Positions 38,200 through 59,301 of a stretch of DNA of 64,000 nt are shown here, in pieces; position 1 is the stretch's first letter, and every line of letters starts with the position of its first letter. Both the position numbers and the translations under genes were made by a program. Below the pieces are notes generated by a model. It did not search any database and was not told the DNA's origin. It saw only the letters and a program-made list of their open reading frames with translations. Origin of the DNA: the human T2T-CHM13v2.0 reference genome, Homo sapiens; assembly GCF_009914755.1 (NCBI RefSeq), contig NC_060925.1. One strand, 5' to 3'.

Positions 38200-38760
38200 A
38201 CTGCGAAGAGGGGGGCAACCAGCGCCCCGCCCCGCCCCGCTGCGCCGCCCGCCATTGGCCGGTCCGAAAGACGCGGGGCGTTGTCGGTTTGAATGAGAGC
38301 GCCTGGAGCCGGGGCGCAGGCGCAGAGGAGGGCGGTGTTGAGACCGGCGGAGCGGCGGGACCCCTAGGTGGCGGAGGGACGCTCCGGGAAAGCGAGGGGC
38401 GCTACGAGCTCTGGCCCACGTGACCTGCCGGGGGCGGGAGCAGGGGGCGCGCCGGCCTCCTGCGGTGCCCCTGCCTTGGGGAGGGGCCGTGACCACCCGT
38501 CTGTCGCCCGAGGCGGCCGCCGCTGCACCTTCACCGCGTACCCGGGACCCGCCCGCCCGCGGGAGGTGAGCGCTTCCGCGACGCGGGTTCTGAGGCGTTT
38601 GAGGGGCTCTCGGAGGGAGGTGACAGGGAGGGGTGCGTGTGCGTGCGTGTGGGGCTTCTGTGTCCAGAGGTCTGGGGGTGACGTCCTTTGTTTTGGGCAG
38701 GAGGCGGGCTGGGGGCTTGCGGGACCTGTGGGCGCTGCGGGGACGCGGCGTCGATGCTCA
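38200..38760. promoter_or_regulatory. GPSM2: CpG island promoter of GPSM2 with GC boxes (38225-38240), inverted CCAAT (38254-38258), CHR TTTGAA (38288-38293), E-box CACGTGAC (38417-38424), CRE-like TGACGTC (38679-38685)
   Basis: Abrupt GC/CpG-rich segment; motifs read directly. Confidence 0.9.
38320..38565 (+). other. GPSM2: GPSM2 non-coding exon 1 (TSS approximate)
   Basis: Donor GAG|GTGAGC at 38565 inside the CpG island. Confidence 0.8.
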
Positions 38761-46610: not shown

Positions 46611-46858
46611 AAATGTTGCTGAAGTGCTGCTGAAAGGGCCAGAGATGCAAGGATTTGGGATACATTTTGAACCTTTAAGCTGTCTGACATTGACCTCCTT
46701 TCATTATTAATAAAGAAGAATCAGGAGCTTAGGATGTATTAACACCAACTCATTAATATACTAACCGGACAATGTTCTACAAACAATTCTACATTGTAAA
46801 GGACTGGATTGGCACAAAATAAAATAATTTTATTTTATTCAGCTTATAATATGACTCG
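46611..46858 (+). other. GPSM2: GPSM2 exon 2, 5' UTR part (248 nt) containing five upstream ATGs
   Basis: Acceptor ttccttttgcag| at 46610; contiguous with the start codon. Confidence 0.85.
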
Positions 46859-46914
46859 ATGGAGGAAAATTTGATAAGCATGAGAGAAGACCATTCTTTT
46901 CATGTTCGTTACAG
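46859..46914 (+). CDS. GPSM2: GPSM2 exon 2 coding part (MEENLISMREDHSFHVRY-R)
   Basis: Recognised LGN N-terminus; donor CAG|GTAAGA; phase 2. Confidence 0.95.
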
Positions 46915-47529: not shown

Positions 47530-48235
47530 TTTTTATTTTATCTTTAAAGGAAATTTTATTTCACAACCATTATTACTGTTTTAAATATGTACCTAATCCA
47601 CATTAATATAAATACATTATTATTAAAATACAAACAAGCGCTGTTCAAAAGAAATGTCATTTTTAAGCTTAATGTCTAGTGACATTTTGTGTTGTTTTGC
47701 TGATTTAATACTTAAGACCACATTTTTACATGAAGTAGTGGTTTGGTAATCCCTAATTTACTCCAGAAAGCAAGTCAGGCTGAGGAAAGGCACCCACATG
47801 CATTCTCTCACAAGCTTCACGGGAGAAATTCCCTAGGGAAATGGCCTGGCTCCTCTAGGACTTACAGTGTTCCCTTGGATGCCCAAATGGATTGTCTACA
47901 TTCCTGGTAGAAGGTTGCAGATTGTAAGGACCAGTGTTCCCACCTTTGTTCTGCATCCACAAGTGTCTTTCACAAATACAACACACTCCCTTTGGCTACA
48001 CCTTATATATAATAGGTTATGCACATGTATGTGTGTTGGTGGGGGTGGATGCTTCCCACTGATCTAGATCAGGATCCAAATCAGACATACACATCAGGAA
48101 AGGAGGGAAGATAGCCAGGAAGTGATAGCTGGGCAGAATGAAGGTACAGAATGGGCAGGTCTTCCTGATTTTTCAGAAGAGCCCAGGAAATCTGAAAATC
48201 TGAAGAGTGTGTGTGTGTGTGTTTTTGTGTTTTTG

Positions 48236-56424: not shown

Positions 56425-56584
56425 CACTGATTCTCAACCCTAACTTGTACTTTAGAATTACCTGGGGCTTTAAAAAAATACAGGTGGCCAGACATCACCC
56501 AGAGGGTGGAGTTCAGCGTTGGGAGTTTTAGAAAGTGCTCCAGGTGAGCTCTGCTGTTGTACAGCCAGCATTAAGAACAACTGC
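56425..56584. mobile_element. MER5A-like
   Basis: gattctcaacc...ttagaattacctgggg...taagaacaactg. Confidence 0.65.
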
Positions 56585-56770
56585 TCTATTGGAGTGGCTC
56601 AAAGCTCATTCTAGTAAGGAGTAACTTAATGCTGTTCCAAAAATTAAAACATTTGATGAGCTTAATCAGAGCTTCTCAAAGAGTGATATGTATGCCACTG
56701 GTGGTACATAAGGTAACTTTACTCACTTTTAGATTTTAATAATTTCATATTTGTTTAATGTGTATTAGAA

Positions 56771-57217
56771 CGGGGTTCCCAACCCCTGGGCCACAGACCA
56801 GTACTGTTGTAGCCTGTTAGGAGGTAAGCTGCAGGTGGGCAGGACGAGTGAGCATTTTCACCTGAGCTCCGCCTCCTGTCAGATCAGCAGTACCATTAGA
56901 TTCTCATAGGAGTGCAAACCCTATTGTGAACTGCACATTCGAGGGATCCAGATTGCACATTCCTTATGAGAGTTTAATGCCTGATGATCTGTCACTGTCT
57001 CCAGTCACACCCAGAGGAGACCATCTAGTTGCAGGAAAACAAGCTCAGGGCTCCCACTGATTGTACATTATGGTGAATGTATAGTAACAAGAGGAATAAA
57101 GTACACAATAAATGTAATGCACTTGAATCATCCCAAAACAATCCCCTGCCACCCGTCCATGGAAAAATTGTCTTCCACAAAACCGGCCCCTGGTGCCAAA
57201 AAGATTGGAGACCGTTG
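56771..57217. mobile_element. MER1A hAT DNA transposon
   Basis: ggggttcccaacccc...gattggagaccgttg with perfect 8-bp TSD tattagaa. Confidence 0.85.
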
Positions 57218-57659
57218 TATTAGAATATACATATAAGTATCGTATCAAATTCACAGTTTCATGAGTACTGCTTTGGATGAAGCTCCATTTTTTTAAAATG
57301 ATAAGTTAAAGATAGTGTGCCAATTTAAAGGAAATTTGCCAAATTACAGAAATAATTAAACGAATAGGTAGTTCCTACATATGGCAGAAATCATGAAGAT
57401 GCTGAAGAAACACAATGGCAACTTTGGTGAAGGGCACCCTCTAAAATTTAGGATTTGAATCCAAAGTATCAGTGTTTTTTTCTCCCAGATATGTTTACAG
57501 TGACTTAATCCTTCTTTTTCAATTCAGGGACAGACTTTCAAAATTAGTATTTCTGCAAATTTTTGAATCATTGTTTTCTAACTTAGTTTCTTGACACCTA
57601 GTTCTCTTGTGAAAATGTGTCTTACAGATCAAGAATATTTTGTTCCTCTATTTTTCTAG

Positions 57660-57774
57660 GGTATAAGTGGACATGTGGTGGTAAGAAGAGGAAGGAGAGT
57701 GAGTGTGTGTTGTGTGTGTATGAGAGAGAGAGCGAGGGATGGATGGCTGGATGGTCAGAGGGGCTGATGAACAG
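57660..57774 (+). other. GPSM2: GPSM2 cryptic exon with internal UG repeat (TDP-43-repressed type), 115 nt
   Basis: Acceptor ttcctctatttttctag|, donor CAG|GTGACT, internal GTGAGTGTGTGTTGTGTGTGTATG; GPSM2 is an established human TDP-43 cryptic-exon gene. Confidence 0.75.
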
Positions 57775-58206
57775 GTGACTAGATTACTTGGATACCTGGG
57801 TAGAGAACAATATTAATAATTGTAGGGCCTCACTTTCCTACATACTCATCTTCTCAGACTCTAAGGAAGTCCAGAGGTCTGTTACAACTCAGAATTGTTT
57901 GGGAAATACTGCTTTAGGCTCTTTCACTAGTAACGTGGATTGCTCTGGGCCAATTAAAATGAGCTCCACATAAAGATATTTAGCTATCCTGACCTCTCTG
58001 AGCAGGCTCAGAGAAATTCGAATAGGCAAATTACCTCTTGCTACAAATAACTGCTTACTGTTTTATCAGGAATGTATATAAACTTCAGTTATAGAGGCAG
58101 CTGCCCTGAACAAGAGTAGCCGCTTAAATTATATTACGGGAAGTTAAAAATACTGTGATGCAGCTGTAATGTTATGTTTAAATGTCTGTCCTGTATAATT
58201 TTGTAG

Positions 58207-58428
58207 AATGGAAGCTTCTTGCCTAGAGCTGGCCTTGGAAGGGGAACGTCTATGTAAATCAGGAGACTGCCGCGCTGGCGTGTCATTCTTTGAAGCTGCA
58301 GTTCAAGTTGGAACTGAAGACCTAAAAACACTTAGCGCTATTTACAGCCAGTTGGGCAATGCTTATTTCTATTTGCATGATTATGCCAAAGCATTAGAAT
58401 ATCACCATCATGATTTAACCCTTGCAAG
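58207..58428 (+). CDS. GPSM2: GPSM2 exon 3 (MEASCLELALEGERLCKSGD...HHHDLTLA-R), TPR region, 222 nt
   Basis: ttttgtag| acceptor, AAG|gtaatt donor; TPR motif YSQLGNAYFYLHDYAKALEY. Confidence 0.97.
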
Positions 58429-58834
58429 GTAATTAATTTAAGCTTTTAAATATTCTTCCTTCTGAAATTAGCTATTACTTTAAAAAATATTTCTATTCAA
58501 TTAACAAAAACTAACTTAATACATTTAATGAGTTCTACTTCAGTAACATCGCTTTTCAAAACTAACCTTTAGGCTGAACACAGTTTAATTGAATGAATAG
58601 TAGTGAATTGACCCTAGAGTTTAATTAAATGGATGAAAACTAATTACATTCAAATCCAGAAATGTAAGTTTTAAATATTTATTTAAAGTAGGTTTCAAAG
58701 CCAATGGGTTTTTCTTACCTTAAGCATGTCAGTTTGTCCTCTTGGAAAACTGTACTCTGGCTACTTTATATTTTAACACCATTTGTATTTTAATACCATT
58801 TGGTTTTTTGTTTTTTGTTTTTTGTTTTTTTCAG

Positions 58835-58970
58835 GACTATTGGAGACCAGCTGGGGGAAGCGAAAGCTAGTGGTAATCTGGGAAACACCTTAAAAGTTCT
58901 TGGGAATTTTGACGAAGCCATAGTTTGTTGTCAGCGACACCTAGATATTTCCAGAGAGCTTAATGACAAG
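58835..58970 (+). CDS. GPSM2: GPSM2 exon 4 (TIGDQLGEAKASGNLGNTLKVLGNFDEAIVCCQRHLDISRELNDK), 136 nt
   Basis: ttttttcag| acceptor, AAG|gtaata donor; NLGN TPR motif. Confidence 0.97.
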
Positions 58971-59301
58971 GTAATACCGCAGCATTAGATGGTAGGCCTA
59001 ATATTTTCATTCAAAGGGCTTTGCATTTTAATACTATTTAATTATTCTATAGTTTATTTTAAAATTAATACCAAAAAAGAAAACATTTATAGACTAATAG
59101 AAGTAAAAGAAAAAAAATTTAATGGAGAAAAAGAAGGAAATAGTAAGAGGTCTTTCATAAGTAATTATTTGATTGGTTCTGTATGGAGAGCCAATATAAA
59201 AATTTTTTTCCCTTGTCCGTAATACTAAGGATATTACAAATATATATGATAAACCTGACCTCTGTTTTCAAAATGTAAACTTTGCTGATGTCTTCATTTA
59301 G

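What the first reader, a model, noticed from the sequence alone, without database searches (positions are those of the whole stretch)
57660..57774. GPSM2 UG-repeat cryptic exon is a frame switch that could give LGN a new N-terminus, not only a poison exon
Seen: a 115-nt AG/GT-bounded exon with an internal UG tract (57699-57722). Spliced after exon 2 the canonical frame stops at once (AG|G GTA TAA), turning Met1/Met8 into a 20- or 13-residue uORF. A second frame is open across the whole exon and in frame with exon 3. It starts at the normally out-of-frame ATG 46902: MFVTG-YKWTCGGKKRKESECVLCVYERESEGWMAGWSEGLMN-R-MEASC..., 43 new residues with a KKRK basic cluster and two more in-frame ATGs (57743, 57767) before the strong-context Met20 (AGA ATG G). 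Established: GPSM2 carries a TDP-43-repressed cryptic exon used as a marker of TDP-43 loss, and short 5' ORFs allow re-initiation and partial NMD escape. Inference: TDP-43 loss could yield near-full-length LGN with a cryptic N-terminal peptide or lacking residues 1-19. ATG 46902 has weak context.
Basis: partly seen in the sequence, partly recalled or inferred. Interest (0 to 1): 0.85.

Follow-up and report, generated by a model that had tools for sequence, protein, structure and literature searches.

The report
Known TDP-43-repressed GPSM2 cryptic exon

Summary
Window 57660-57774 is a 115-nt AG/GT-bounded stretch in GPSM2 intron 2 with an interrupted UG tract at 57699-57722. It is the published TDP-43-repressed GPSM2 cryptic exon. 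A published 'cryptic GPSM2' primer pair maps inside it and across the 57774|58207 junction. The acceptor at 57660 is inferred from sequence only.

In the LGN frame the exon stops translation at codon 21 (TAA 57664-57666). The ATG at 46902 does open a stop-free frame through the exon into exon 3.

That open frame is within chance: 3.2% of shuffles and 12.8% of intron windows show it. ATG 46902 has the weakest context class and lies behind two better AUGs.

A 2025 paper already ran ORF prediction on this exon and filed it as 'in-frame'. A proteogenomic screen that used all Met-to-stop ORFs does not name GPSM2 in its main text.

Best reading: a known loss-of-function or poison-type cryptic exon. 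N-terminally altered LGN is possible but unproven. The exon is already known; interest is low to moderate.

The parts
46611..46914 (+). GPSM2 exon 2 (MANE; a short form starts at 46843). It holds the 5'UTR with five uAUGs and LGN codons 1-18 plus 2 nt. Donor is CAG|GTAAGA.
   Evidence: RefSeq rows; sequence; AUG list; donor matches 8 of 9 consensus positions
46851..46874 (+). Last uORF (7 codons, A at -3). It overlaps Met1 and is in the same frame as ATG 46902. It is present in all isoforms that contain exon 2.
46859..46861 (+). Annotated LGN start (Met1; T at -3, G at +4). With the cryptic exon it heads a 20-codon ORF.
46880..46882 (+). Met8 AUG (A at -3, A at +4). With the cryptic exon it heads a 13-codon ORF.
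46902..46904 (+). Out-of-frame AUG (T at -3, T at +4). It gives a 10-codon ORF in normal mRNA. With the cryptic exon it gives a stop-free path into the LGN frame (predicted 708 aa).
57621..57625 (+). Branch-point-like CTTAC; its A lies 35 nt upstream of the acceptor AG.
   Evidence: consensus match only; inferred
57640..57659 (+). Polypyrimidine tract and acceptor AG. It has 16 of 18 pyrimidines, the best of all AG sites in 57450-57760 and equal to the best annotated acceptor in the window.
57660..57774 (+). 115-nt TDP-43-repressed cryptic exon of GPSM2, in intron 2. It is in none of the 10 RefSeq GPSM2 transcripts.
   Evidence: a published forward primer maps to 57714-57735 and the reverse primer spans 57774|58207; single copy in the genome apart from its microsatellite core
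57664..57666 (+). TAA that ends the canonical LGN frame at codon 21. It lies 108 nt upstream of the next exon junction.
57699..57722 (+). Interrupted UG tract, the presumed TDP-43 binding site, followed by a (GA)5 run at 57722-57731.
   Evidence: PMC11416411 describes the GPSM2 repeat as a non-continuous UG repeat
57739..57741 (+). Out-of-frame AUG in strong context (G at -3, G at +4), 72 nt after the stop. Its 28-codon ORF ends at 58257 and overlaps Met20.
57743..57745 (+). First AUG in the LGN frame inside the exon (T at -3, G at +4). It would add 11 residues before Met20.
57751..57753 (+). Second out-of-frame AUG (T at -3, G at +4). Its 24-codon ORF ends at 58257.
57767..57769 (+). Second AUG in the LGN frame inside the exon (weak context). 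It would add 3 residues before Met20.
57775..57780 (+). Intronic part of the donor (GTGACT). The full 9-mer matches 8 of 9 consensus positions and is the best donor within 300 nt.
58207..58428 (+). GPSM2 exon 3. Met20 is at 58208-58210 (A at -3, G at +4), and the TPR core starts here.
   Evidence: LGN TPR crystal constructs start within 5 residues of Met20

Best explanation
Window 57660-57774 is the already described, TDP-43-repressed cryptic exon of GPSM2 (LGN), lying in intron 2.

How it works:
- TDP-43 normally binds the interrupted UG tract inside the exon (57699-57722). This keeps a splicing-competent pseudo-exon silent.
- When nuclear TDP-43 is lost, the exon is spliced between exons 2 and 3.
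- Its main effect is loss of normal LGN from those transcripts. The canonical frame stops at codon 21 (TAA 57664-57666). That stop is far enough upstream of 13 exon junctions to be an NMD substrate.
- Because the stop is so close to the start codon, the message looks like a GPSM2 mRNA with one more short uORF. Decay may therefore be incomplete, and some ribosomes may re-initiate.

Expected side products:
- Most re-initiation should go to the out-of-frame AUG 57739.
- A smaller part should go to the LGN-frame AUGs 57743, 57767 and Met20. These would give LGN lacking residues 1-19, with 11, 3 or 0 extra residues.
- The 43-residue alternative N-terminus from ATG 46902 is a possible but probably very minor product.

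Shown here: the anatomy, the frames and the match to a published junction primer. Taken from papers: TDP-43 dependence. Inferred: NMD sensitivity and every statement about translation.
For: - Anatomy and frames.
- None of the 10 RefSeq GPSM2 transcripts contains the exon.
- PMC11416411 Table 2 lists 'CRYPTIC GPSM2' primers. The forward primer maps uniquely to 57714-57735. The reverse primer equals the last 10 nt of the exon plus the first 13 nt of exon 3, and is not contiguous in the genome.
- TDP-43 knockdown or knockout induces the GPSM2 cryptic exon in HEK293T, HeLa, SH-SY5Y, iPSC motor neurons and myoblasts. It is also detected in ALS/FTLD/AD brain and IBM muscle (passages).
- UG-rich tracts: 2 in the window, against a mean of 0.13 in 100 shuffles.
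- The stop is 108 nt upstream of the next junction, and MANE has 15 exons.
- The reported re-initiation optimum is about 78 nt after a start-proximal stop, and AUG-proximal stops evade NMD (abstract starts of PMC6614817 and PMC3273812).
- LGN TPR constructs that start at or near Met20 crystallised with partners, so a form lacking residues 1-19 would probably fold.
Against: - The acceptor at 57660 was not confirmed by any text I could read. Acceptors at 57528 and 57489 have nearly as good pyrimidine tracts, 15 of 18.
- One cell-line re-analysis did not detect the GPSM2 exon (PMC5446763).
- I saw no data on the NMD sensitivity of this isoform. Its easy detection without NMD inhibitors in many tissues could mean NMD is weak, which would leave more room for protein products than I assume.
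- PMC12143990 files the exon as 'in-frame', which at face value contradicts a pure poison-exon label.
- TDP-43 binding to this tract was not tested here.
- Cross-species non-conservation could not be tested, because no other mammalian genomes were at hand.
Confidence: 0.75

Rival explanations
1. One reading: the exon acts as a frame switch. Ribosomes that start at the normally out-of-frame ATG 46902 read through the exon. They make a 708-aa LGN whose first 19 residues are replaced by a 43-residue cryptic N-terminus with a KKRK cluster, in amounts that matter biologically or as a neoepitope.
For: - The ORF is real and stop-free.
- Of the strong-tract acceptors tested with length = 1 mod 3, only 57660 gives a stop-free path.
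- The uORF at 46851 ends 27 nt before ATG 46902 in the same frame, so some post-termination ribosomes pass Met1 and Met8.
- PMC12143990 used ORFfinder and called the exon 'in-frame', which fits its longest ORF being this one.
- N-terminal additions at this position are tolerated in crystallised constructs.
- KKRK fits the classical monopartite nuclear-localisation consensus (recalled, not tested).
Against: - ATG 46902 has T at -3 and T at +4. It follows Met1 (G at +4) and Met8 (A at -3). The toy model gives it about 5% of Met1's share, with assumed parameters.
- The open frame is expected by chance in 3-13% of comparable sequences.
- Most ribosomes would still stop at 57666 and mark the mRNA for NMD.
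- A literature search for four peptide strings from this ORF found 0 papers.
- The proteogenomic screen of TDP-43-depleted neurons took all Met-to-stop ORFs and reports 65 peptides in 12 genes, yet its main text never names GPSM2.
- Bulk-brain inclusion differences are below 4%.
Confidence: 0.08
2. uORF-like re-initiation: after the 20-codon ORF, ribosomes resume scanning and start at 57743, 57767 or Met20. They make LGN that lacks residues 1-19 (plus 11, 3 or 0 new residues). The AUG-proximal stop lets a good part of the mRNA escape NMD.
For: - The stop is 60 nt after Met1.
- In-frame AUGs lie 76, 100 and 109 nt after the stop, and Met20 has A at -3 and G at +4.
- Abstract starts say AUG-proximal stops can substantially evade NMD (PMC3273812). 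They also say re-initiation is best when the stop is near the first AUG and about 78 nt before the next one (PMC6614817).
- The normal 5'UTR already carries five uORFs, so this mRNA is translated despite uORF termination.
- RefSeq models a Met20 start.
- TPR constructs starting at Met20 fold and bind partners.
- The exon is readily detected without NMD inhibition.
Against: - AUG 57739 (strong context, out of frame) comes 4 nt before 57743, and AUG 57751 follows. Both ORFs run past Met20 to 58257, so they should capture much of the re-initiating flux.
- Internal short ORFs are reported to repress N-terminally truncated proteoforms (PMC11933307, listing only).
- Re-initiation after uORFs does not fully protect from NMD (PMC10187673, title and abstract start).
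- I saw no protein or Ribo-seq data for GPSM2.
Confidence: 0.25
3. The real cryptic exon uses another acceptor (for example 57528 or 57489) or an internal donor. In that case the reader's frame arithmetic does not apply to the transcripts actually made.
For: - The acceptor was not confirmed in any text I could read.
- Acceptors at 57528 and 57489 score 15 of 18 pyrimidines.
- Internal donors after 57698 (7 of 9) and 57680 (6 of 9) exist.
Against: - 57660 has the best tract (16 of 18) and a branch-point-like motif at -35. The donor at 57774 is the best (8 of 9) and is confirmed by a published junction primer.
- The longer exons carry 3 or 4 stops in the frame that rejoins LGN. That would not fit the 'in-frame' label of PMC12143990.
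- All variants keep, or precede, the TAA in the canonical frame.
Confidence: 0.07

Closest known systems
TDP-43-repressed non-conserved cryptic exons (class defined by Ling et al. 2015, a paper not held here; GPSM2 and ATG4B were its first tissue markers according to passages)
   Same: It is an intronic, unannotated, AG/GT-bounded exon with a UG-rich tract. It is included on TDP-43 loss. It is this very exon: a published primer maps to it and to its junction with exon 3.
   Different: Nothing differs; it is the known member. The UG tract lies inside the exon and is interrupted.
Poison-type cryptic exons that cause NMD and protein loss (UNC13A type; abstracts of PMC8891020 and 10.1101/2021.04.02.438170 in the listing)
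   Same: There is a stop codon in the host frame more than 55 nt upstream of downstream junctions, so loss of the normal protein from those transcripts is predicted.
   Different: The stop is only 20 codons from the start. The truncated ORF is therefore uORF-sized, and rules for AUG-proximal stops (weaker NMD, re-initiation) may apply. NMD sensitivity of the GPSM2 isoform was not seen in any text.
In-frame cryptic exons that yield cryptic peptides (HDGFL2, MYO18A, CAMK2B; PMC9900763 passages)
   Same: A stop-free frame crosses the exon and rejoins the host protein. PMC12143990 lists GPSM2 beside HDGFL2 as 'in-frame'.
   Different: The length is 115 nt, not a multiple of 3, and the host frame has a stop. 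The open frame is reachable only from a different, weak AUG. No peptide is reported.
AUG-proximal nonsense codons with NMD evasion and downstream re-initiation (PMC3273812 and PMC6614817; and early CRISPR frameshifts rescued by re-initiation, 10.1101/716019; listings only)
   Same: There is a short first ORF. In-frame AUGs lie 76-109 nt after the stop, one of them in strong context.
   Different: Here the stop is brought in by splicing, not by mutation. Two out-of-frame AUGs intervene, and their ORFs overlap the best in-frame AUG.
Internal short ORFs that repress N-terminally truncated proteoforms (PMC11933307; listing only)
   Same: The 28- and 24-codon ORFs from 57739 and 57751 sit just upstream of Met20 and overlap it.
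   Different: They exist only in the exon-containing mRNA. Their use is untested.

Membership tests
TDP-43-repressed cryptic exon | Intronic sequence absent from normal annotated transcripts | tested here: met
   0 of 10 RefSeq GPSM2 transcripts contain 57660-57774
TDP-43-repressed cryptic exon | Competent splice signals at both ends | tested here: met
   AG with 16 of 18 pyrimidines upstream, and a donor matching 8 of 9 positions. Both equal or beat the annotated sites in the window. This is a consensus count only, not a trained splice-site score.
TDP-43-repressed cryptic exon | UG-rich TDP-43 binding tract in or next to the exon | tested here: met
   24-nt tract with 9 TG dinucleotides. It is one of 2 such tracts in 64 kb, against a mean of 0.13 in 100 shuffles. 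Binding itself was not tested.
TDP-43-repressed cryptic exon | Inclusion when TDP-43 is depleted, at these junctions | not testable with these tools
   From papers only. The donor junction 57774|58207 matches a published junction primer. The acceptor junction was not seen in print.
TDP-43-repressed cryptic exon | Not conserved across species | not tested
   No other mammalian genome was available. The exon is single copy in this genome and overlaps no masked repeat of 100 nt or more.
NMD-triggering poison exon | Stop codon in the host frame | tested here: met
   TAA at 57664-57666
NMD-triggering poison exon | Stop more than 50-55 nt upstream of a downstream exon junction | tested here: met
   The stop is 108 nt before the junction with exon 3, with 13 junctions downstream in the 15-exon MANE transcript
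NMD-triggering poison exon | Isoform stabilised when NMD is blocked; host mRNA or protein reduced | not testable with these tools
   No passage seen gives this for GPSM2. The AUG-proximal position argues for weaker NMD.
In-frame, peptide-producing cryptic exon (HDGFL2 type) | Length a multiple of 3 and no stop in the host frame | tested here: not met
   The exon is 115 nt, and the host frame has 4 stops within it
In-frame, peptide-producing cryptic exon (HDGFL2 type) | Exon-encoded peptide detected | not tested
   0 papers hold any of four peptide strings. GPSM2 is absent from the main text of PMC9900763. Supplements were closed.
AUG-proximal stop with re-initiation | Short first ORF with the stop close to the first AUG | tested here: met
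   20 codons from Met1 and 13 from Met8
AUG-proximal stop with re-initiation | Accessible downstream in-frame AUG at a suitable distance | tested here: inconclusive
   In-frame AUGs lie 76, 100 and 109 nt after the stop. The strong out-of-frame AUG at 72 nt comes first, another follows at 84 nt, and their ORFs overlap Met20.
AUG-proximal stop with re-initiation | N-terminally truncated protein observed | not testable with these tools
   No data seen

The most novel reading that the evidence does not exclude
The GPSM2 cryptic exon is not a simple poison exon. It turns LGN's first 19 codons into a sixth uORF, so the mRNA partly escapes NMD as an AUG-proximal-stop transcript.

TDP-43-deficient cells would then make N-terminally altered LGN. 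One form would lack residues 1-19, with 0, 3 or 11 new residues. A smaller amount would be the 708-aa form with a 43-residue cryptic N-terminus carrying an NLS-like KKRK.

These proteins would keep a folded TPR domain and its partners but lack the native N-terminal segment. They would offer a non-neuronal cryptic neoepitope (brain glia, IBM muscle), and possibly a mislocalised or dominant-negative LGN.
Probability: 0.12. Interest if true: 0.55.

Novelty: already known. Interest (0 to 1): 0.3.

Why it matters
The exon itself is a standard marker of TDP-43 loss in ALS/FTD, Alzheimer-type TDP-43 pathology and inclusion body myositis, so finding it again adds nothing.

The one fresh point is that its stop codon is start-proximal. 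The usual verdict of 'out-of-frame, therefore NMD, therefore no protein' may be too simple for this gene. A large 2026 review sorts cryptic-exon outcomes into four classes: in-frame, out-of-frame with NMD, NMD escape with truncation, and polyadenylation. In the 300,000 of its 403,460 characters that are held, it has no hit for 'start codon' or 'uORF'.

If N-terminally altered LGN were made, it would be a broadly expressed, non-neuronal cryptic protein marker. It would also be a possible modifier of LGN-NuMA function.

The idea is cheap to test with a reporter, with existing Ribo-seq, and with existing NMD-inhibition RNA-seq data. As it stands it is an inference on a weak start codon.

Tried and rejected
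Confirming the acceptor junction from print:
- Ling et al. 2015 is not held.
- Primer tables are images or supplements in the IBM preprint, the Perry-syndrome paper, Schmidt 2019, the JCB paper and the Brain paper.
- Only the donor junction could be confirmed.

Other checks that led nowhere:
- Transposon origin: no masked repeat or functional-element row overlaps 56500-59000. The exon is single copy apart from its microsatellite core, which has 25 short look-alikes. Tandem Repeats Finder gave 0 rows at score 30 or above for 57400-58000. I therefore rejected a mobile-element origin.
- Selection for the open frame: rejected. It is open in 3.2% of shuffles and 12.8% of intron windows.
- Published peptides: 0 papers.
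- A published link between TDP-43 cryptic exons and alternative or downstream start codons: none among the 15 papers listed of the 57 that held at least 3 of 6 terms. The 2026 review has none either. GPSM2 has 0 hits in the main texts of PMC9900763, PMC12262510 and PMC12667841.

Steps not done:
- I ran no trained splice-site scoring, because no model was available. I used consensus counts instead.
- I ran no cross-species comparison, because no mammalian genomes were available.
- I ran no protein word search, Atlas search or structure prediction of the spliced protein. That would have required typing a joined sequence, and the 37-residue exon peptide alone would not find full-length relatives.
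- The role of LGN residues 1-19 in NuMA:LGN hexamers is only recalled. PMC6525239 was seen only as a listing.

The scanning model uses probabilities I assumed (0.9, 0.5, 0.1). It is an illustration, not a measurement.
Full report
**1. What the sequence shows**

Window 57660-57774 is 115 nt long. It is preceded by a 20-nt pyrimidine-rich tract ending in AG and followed by GTGACT.

It lies in the 11.3-kb intron between GPSM2 exon 2 (46611-46914) and exon 3 (58207-58428). None of the 10 RefSeq GPSM2 transcripts contains it.

The stretch 57699-57722 is an interrupted UG run with 9 TG dinucleotides and 92% G+T. A (GA)5 run follows it.

I spliced the exons by coordinate in a script.
- The canonical frame reads Arg, Val and then TAA at 57664-57666. 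Met1 and Met8 therefore head ORFs of 20 and 13 codons.
- ATG 46902 normally gives a 10-codon ORF ending in exon 3. With the exon it gives a stop-free path into the LGN frame.
- That path has 43 residues ahead of Met20, a KKRK cluster, and in-frame ATGs at 57743 and 57767.
- The product would be 708 aa, against 684 aa for LGN.

**2. What it is**

This is the published TDP-43-repressed GPSM2 cryptic exon. PMC11416411 (Table 2, passage seen) lists a 'CRYPTIC GPSM2' primer pair.
- The forward primer maps once in the window, at 57714-57735.
- The reverse primer is the reverse complement of the last 10 nt of the exon joined to the first 13 nt of exon 3. It is not contiguous in the genome.

The junction 57774|58207 is therefore in use in the literature.

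Passages in several papers report that this exon appears on TDP-43 knockdown, knockout or dominant-negative expression. The cell types are HEK293T, HeLa, SH-SY5Y, iPSC motor neurons and myoblasts. The exon is also used as a marker in ALS/FTLD, Alzheimer-type and Perry-syndrome brain and in inclusion body myositis muscle. One cell-line re-analysis did not detect it. PMC11416411 describes the GPSM2 repeat as non-continuous, which matches the sequence here.

The founding paper (Ling et al. 2015) is not held. I know it only through citations and recall.

**3. Splice signals and the unconfirmed acceptor**

I could not find the 46914>57660 junction in any text open to me, because the primer tables are images or supplements. 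The sequence evidence is as follows:
- 57660 has the best pyrimidine tract of all AG sites in 57450-57760, at 16 of 18. This equals the best annotated acceptor in the window.
- A CTTAC branch-like motif lies 35 nt upstream.
- The donor after 57774 matches 8 of 9 consensus positions, the best within 300 nt.
- Acceptors at 57528 and 57489 (15 of 18) cannot be excluded on sequence alone. The longer exons they would make carry 3 and 4 stops in the frame that rejoins LGN.

**4. Origin and chance**

The exon overlaps no masked repeat of 100 nt or more. It is single copy in the genome. Only its microsatellite core, about 57695-57746, resembles 25 other places.

UG-rich tracts of this density occur twice on the + strand of the window. 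The mean in 100 dinucleotide shuffles was 0.13.

The open alternative frame is not special. It is open in:
- 3.2% of 20,000 dinucleotide shuffles of the exon;
- 1,434 of 11,177 115-nt windows of the same intron;
- 303 of 2,737 AG..GT-bounded candidates with the same length class.

With hundreds of TDP-43 cryptic exons known, some will have such a frame by accident.

**5. How translation would probably go (inference)**

Exon 1 has no AUG. The long exon 2 has five uAUGs. The last one (46851, A at -3) overlaps Met1 and ends at 46874. GPSM2 is therefore already translated through leaky scanning and re-initiation.

*ATG 46902.* In the exon-containing mRNA the start-codon contexts are:
- Met1: T at -3, G at +4.
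- Met8: A at -3, A at +4.
- ATG 46902: T at -3, T at +4, the weakest class.

A leaky-scanning toy model gives ATG 46902 about 5% of Met1's share. Its probabilities (0.9, 0.5, 0.1) are assumed, so this is an illustration only.

*Re-initiation.* Ribosomes that stop at 57666 could resume scanning. The AUGs that follow, with their distance after the stop, are:

| AUG | nt after stop | Frame | Note |
|---|---|---|---|
| 57673 | 6 | out | 3 codons |
| 57720 | 53 | out | 15 codons |
| 57739 | 72 | out | G at -3, G at +4; 28 codons |
| 57743 | 76 | in | LGN frame |
| 57751 | 84 | out | 24 codons |
| 57767 | 100 | in | LGN frame |
| Met20 | 109 | in | A at -3, G at +4 |

An abstract start seen in a listing puts the re-initiation optimum at about 78 nt after a start-proximal stop (PMC6614817). 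That distance falls on the 57739/57743 pair, and the out-of-frame AUG comes first there.

The two out-of-frame ORFs run to 58257, past Met20. They should therefore shield Met20, as described for internal short ORFs in PMC11933307 (listing only).

**6. NMD (inference)**

The stop lies 108 nt before the next junction. Thirteen junctions follow it in the 15-exon MANE transcript, so the classical rule predicts decay.

Against that, AUG-proximal stops are reported to evade NMD substantially (PMC3273812, abstract start). Re-initiation after uORFs protects only partly (PMC10187673, title and abstract start).

The exon is easily detected without NMD inhibitors in many systems. This fits incomplete decay but does not prove it. 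In bulk FTLD-TDP cortex the inclusion difference is under 4%.

**7. What an altered N-terminus would mean**

Five of the six human or mouse LGN TPR sequence clusters in the PDB start within 5 residues of Met20. Those named in the table as complexes or known to me as such bind partners. Only 6hc2 carries 12 more residues upstream.

Residues 1-19 therefore seem dispensable for TPR folding. LGN lacking them, or carrying a foreign extension, would probably fold.

RefSeq already models a Met20 start in a transcript that skips exon 2 (XM_054336189.1).

I recall, but could not read, that the N-terminal segment contributes to NuMA:LGN hexamers. PMC6525239 was seen only as a listing. KKRK fits the classical monopartite nuclear-localisation consensus; this is recalled and not tested.

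**8. What is already in print about translation of this exon**

PMC12143990 (passages) added cryptic exons to MANE cDNAs, ran ORFfinder and BLASTp, and filed GPSM2 under 'in-frame exons' with AARS1, ACTL6B and HDGFL2. Its figure legend mentions novel start codons.

A 115-nt exon cannot be in-frame in the strict sense.

PMC9900763 built its search space from all Met-to-stop ORFs and reports 65 peptides in 12 genes. GPSM2 is absent from its main text, and the 2026 review lists no GPSM2 protein-level detection.

A search for four peptide strings from the ORF found 0 papers. No listed paper links a TDP-43 cryptic exon with an alternative or downstream start. The review has no hit for 'start codon' or 'uORF' in the 300,000 of 403,460 characters held.

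**9. Verdict**

- The exon is already known.
The frame logic is right, and the start-proximal stop is a fair reason to doubt a pure 'poison exon' label.
- Use of ATG 46902 is unlikely to be more than a few percent of initiation.
- Re-initiation in the LGN frame is hindered by out-of-frame AUGs.
- No protein evidence exists in what I could read.

My confidence in each reading:

| Reading | Confidence |
|---|---|
| Known TDP-43 cryptic exon acting mainly by loss of normal LGN | 0.75 |
| Detectable re-initiation products | 0.25 |
| Meaningful 43-residue N-terminus from ATG 46902 | 0.08 |
| Different junctions than assumed | 0.07 |

These are not exclusive, since the first allows minor products. 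Interest is 0.3.

Noticed in passing
window 48198-48235: This is the only other UG-rich tract on the + strand of the window, with (TG)9. It is also in GPSM2 intron 2, directly followed by a T-run and an antisense Alu-like stretch. It could be a second TDP-43 binding site.
   Followed up: no
window 46611-46874: The long form of GPSM2 exon 2 carries five upstream AUGs. The last one (46851, A at -3, 7 codons) overlaps Met1 and is present in every isoform that contains exon 2. Exon 1 has no AUG.
   Followed up: partly
window 38322-38565 joined to 58207 (XM_054336189.1): A RefSeq model transcript skips exon 2 and starts its coding part at Met20 (58208). An LGN lacking residues 1-19 is therefore already modelled.
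   Followed up: partly
window 57680 and 57698: Near-consensus internal donors lie inside the cryptic exon: GTG|GTAAGA (6 of 9) and AGA|GTGAGT (7 of 9). The second sits at the first bases of the UG tract. They would make 21- and 39-nt mini-exons that still contain the TAA.
   Followed up: no
window 57695-57746: The exon's core is a compound (TG)n(GA)n microsatellite with 25 short look-alikes elsewhere in the genome. A 2-nt length change here would break the ATG 46902 frame, but not the AUGs at 57743 and 57767. This is an inference; no variation data were seen.
   Followed up: no
window 58208-58426 versus PDB: PDB chain 6hc2_A of LGN has 12 residues before Met20, which fits a start at Met8 and an older 677-residue numbering (recalled). 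Residue numbers in structural papers may therefore be offset by 7 from the 684-aa RefSeq protein.
   Followed up: partly
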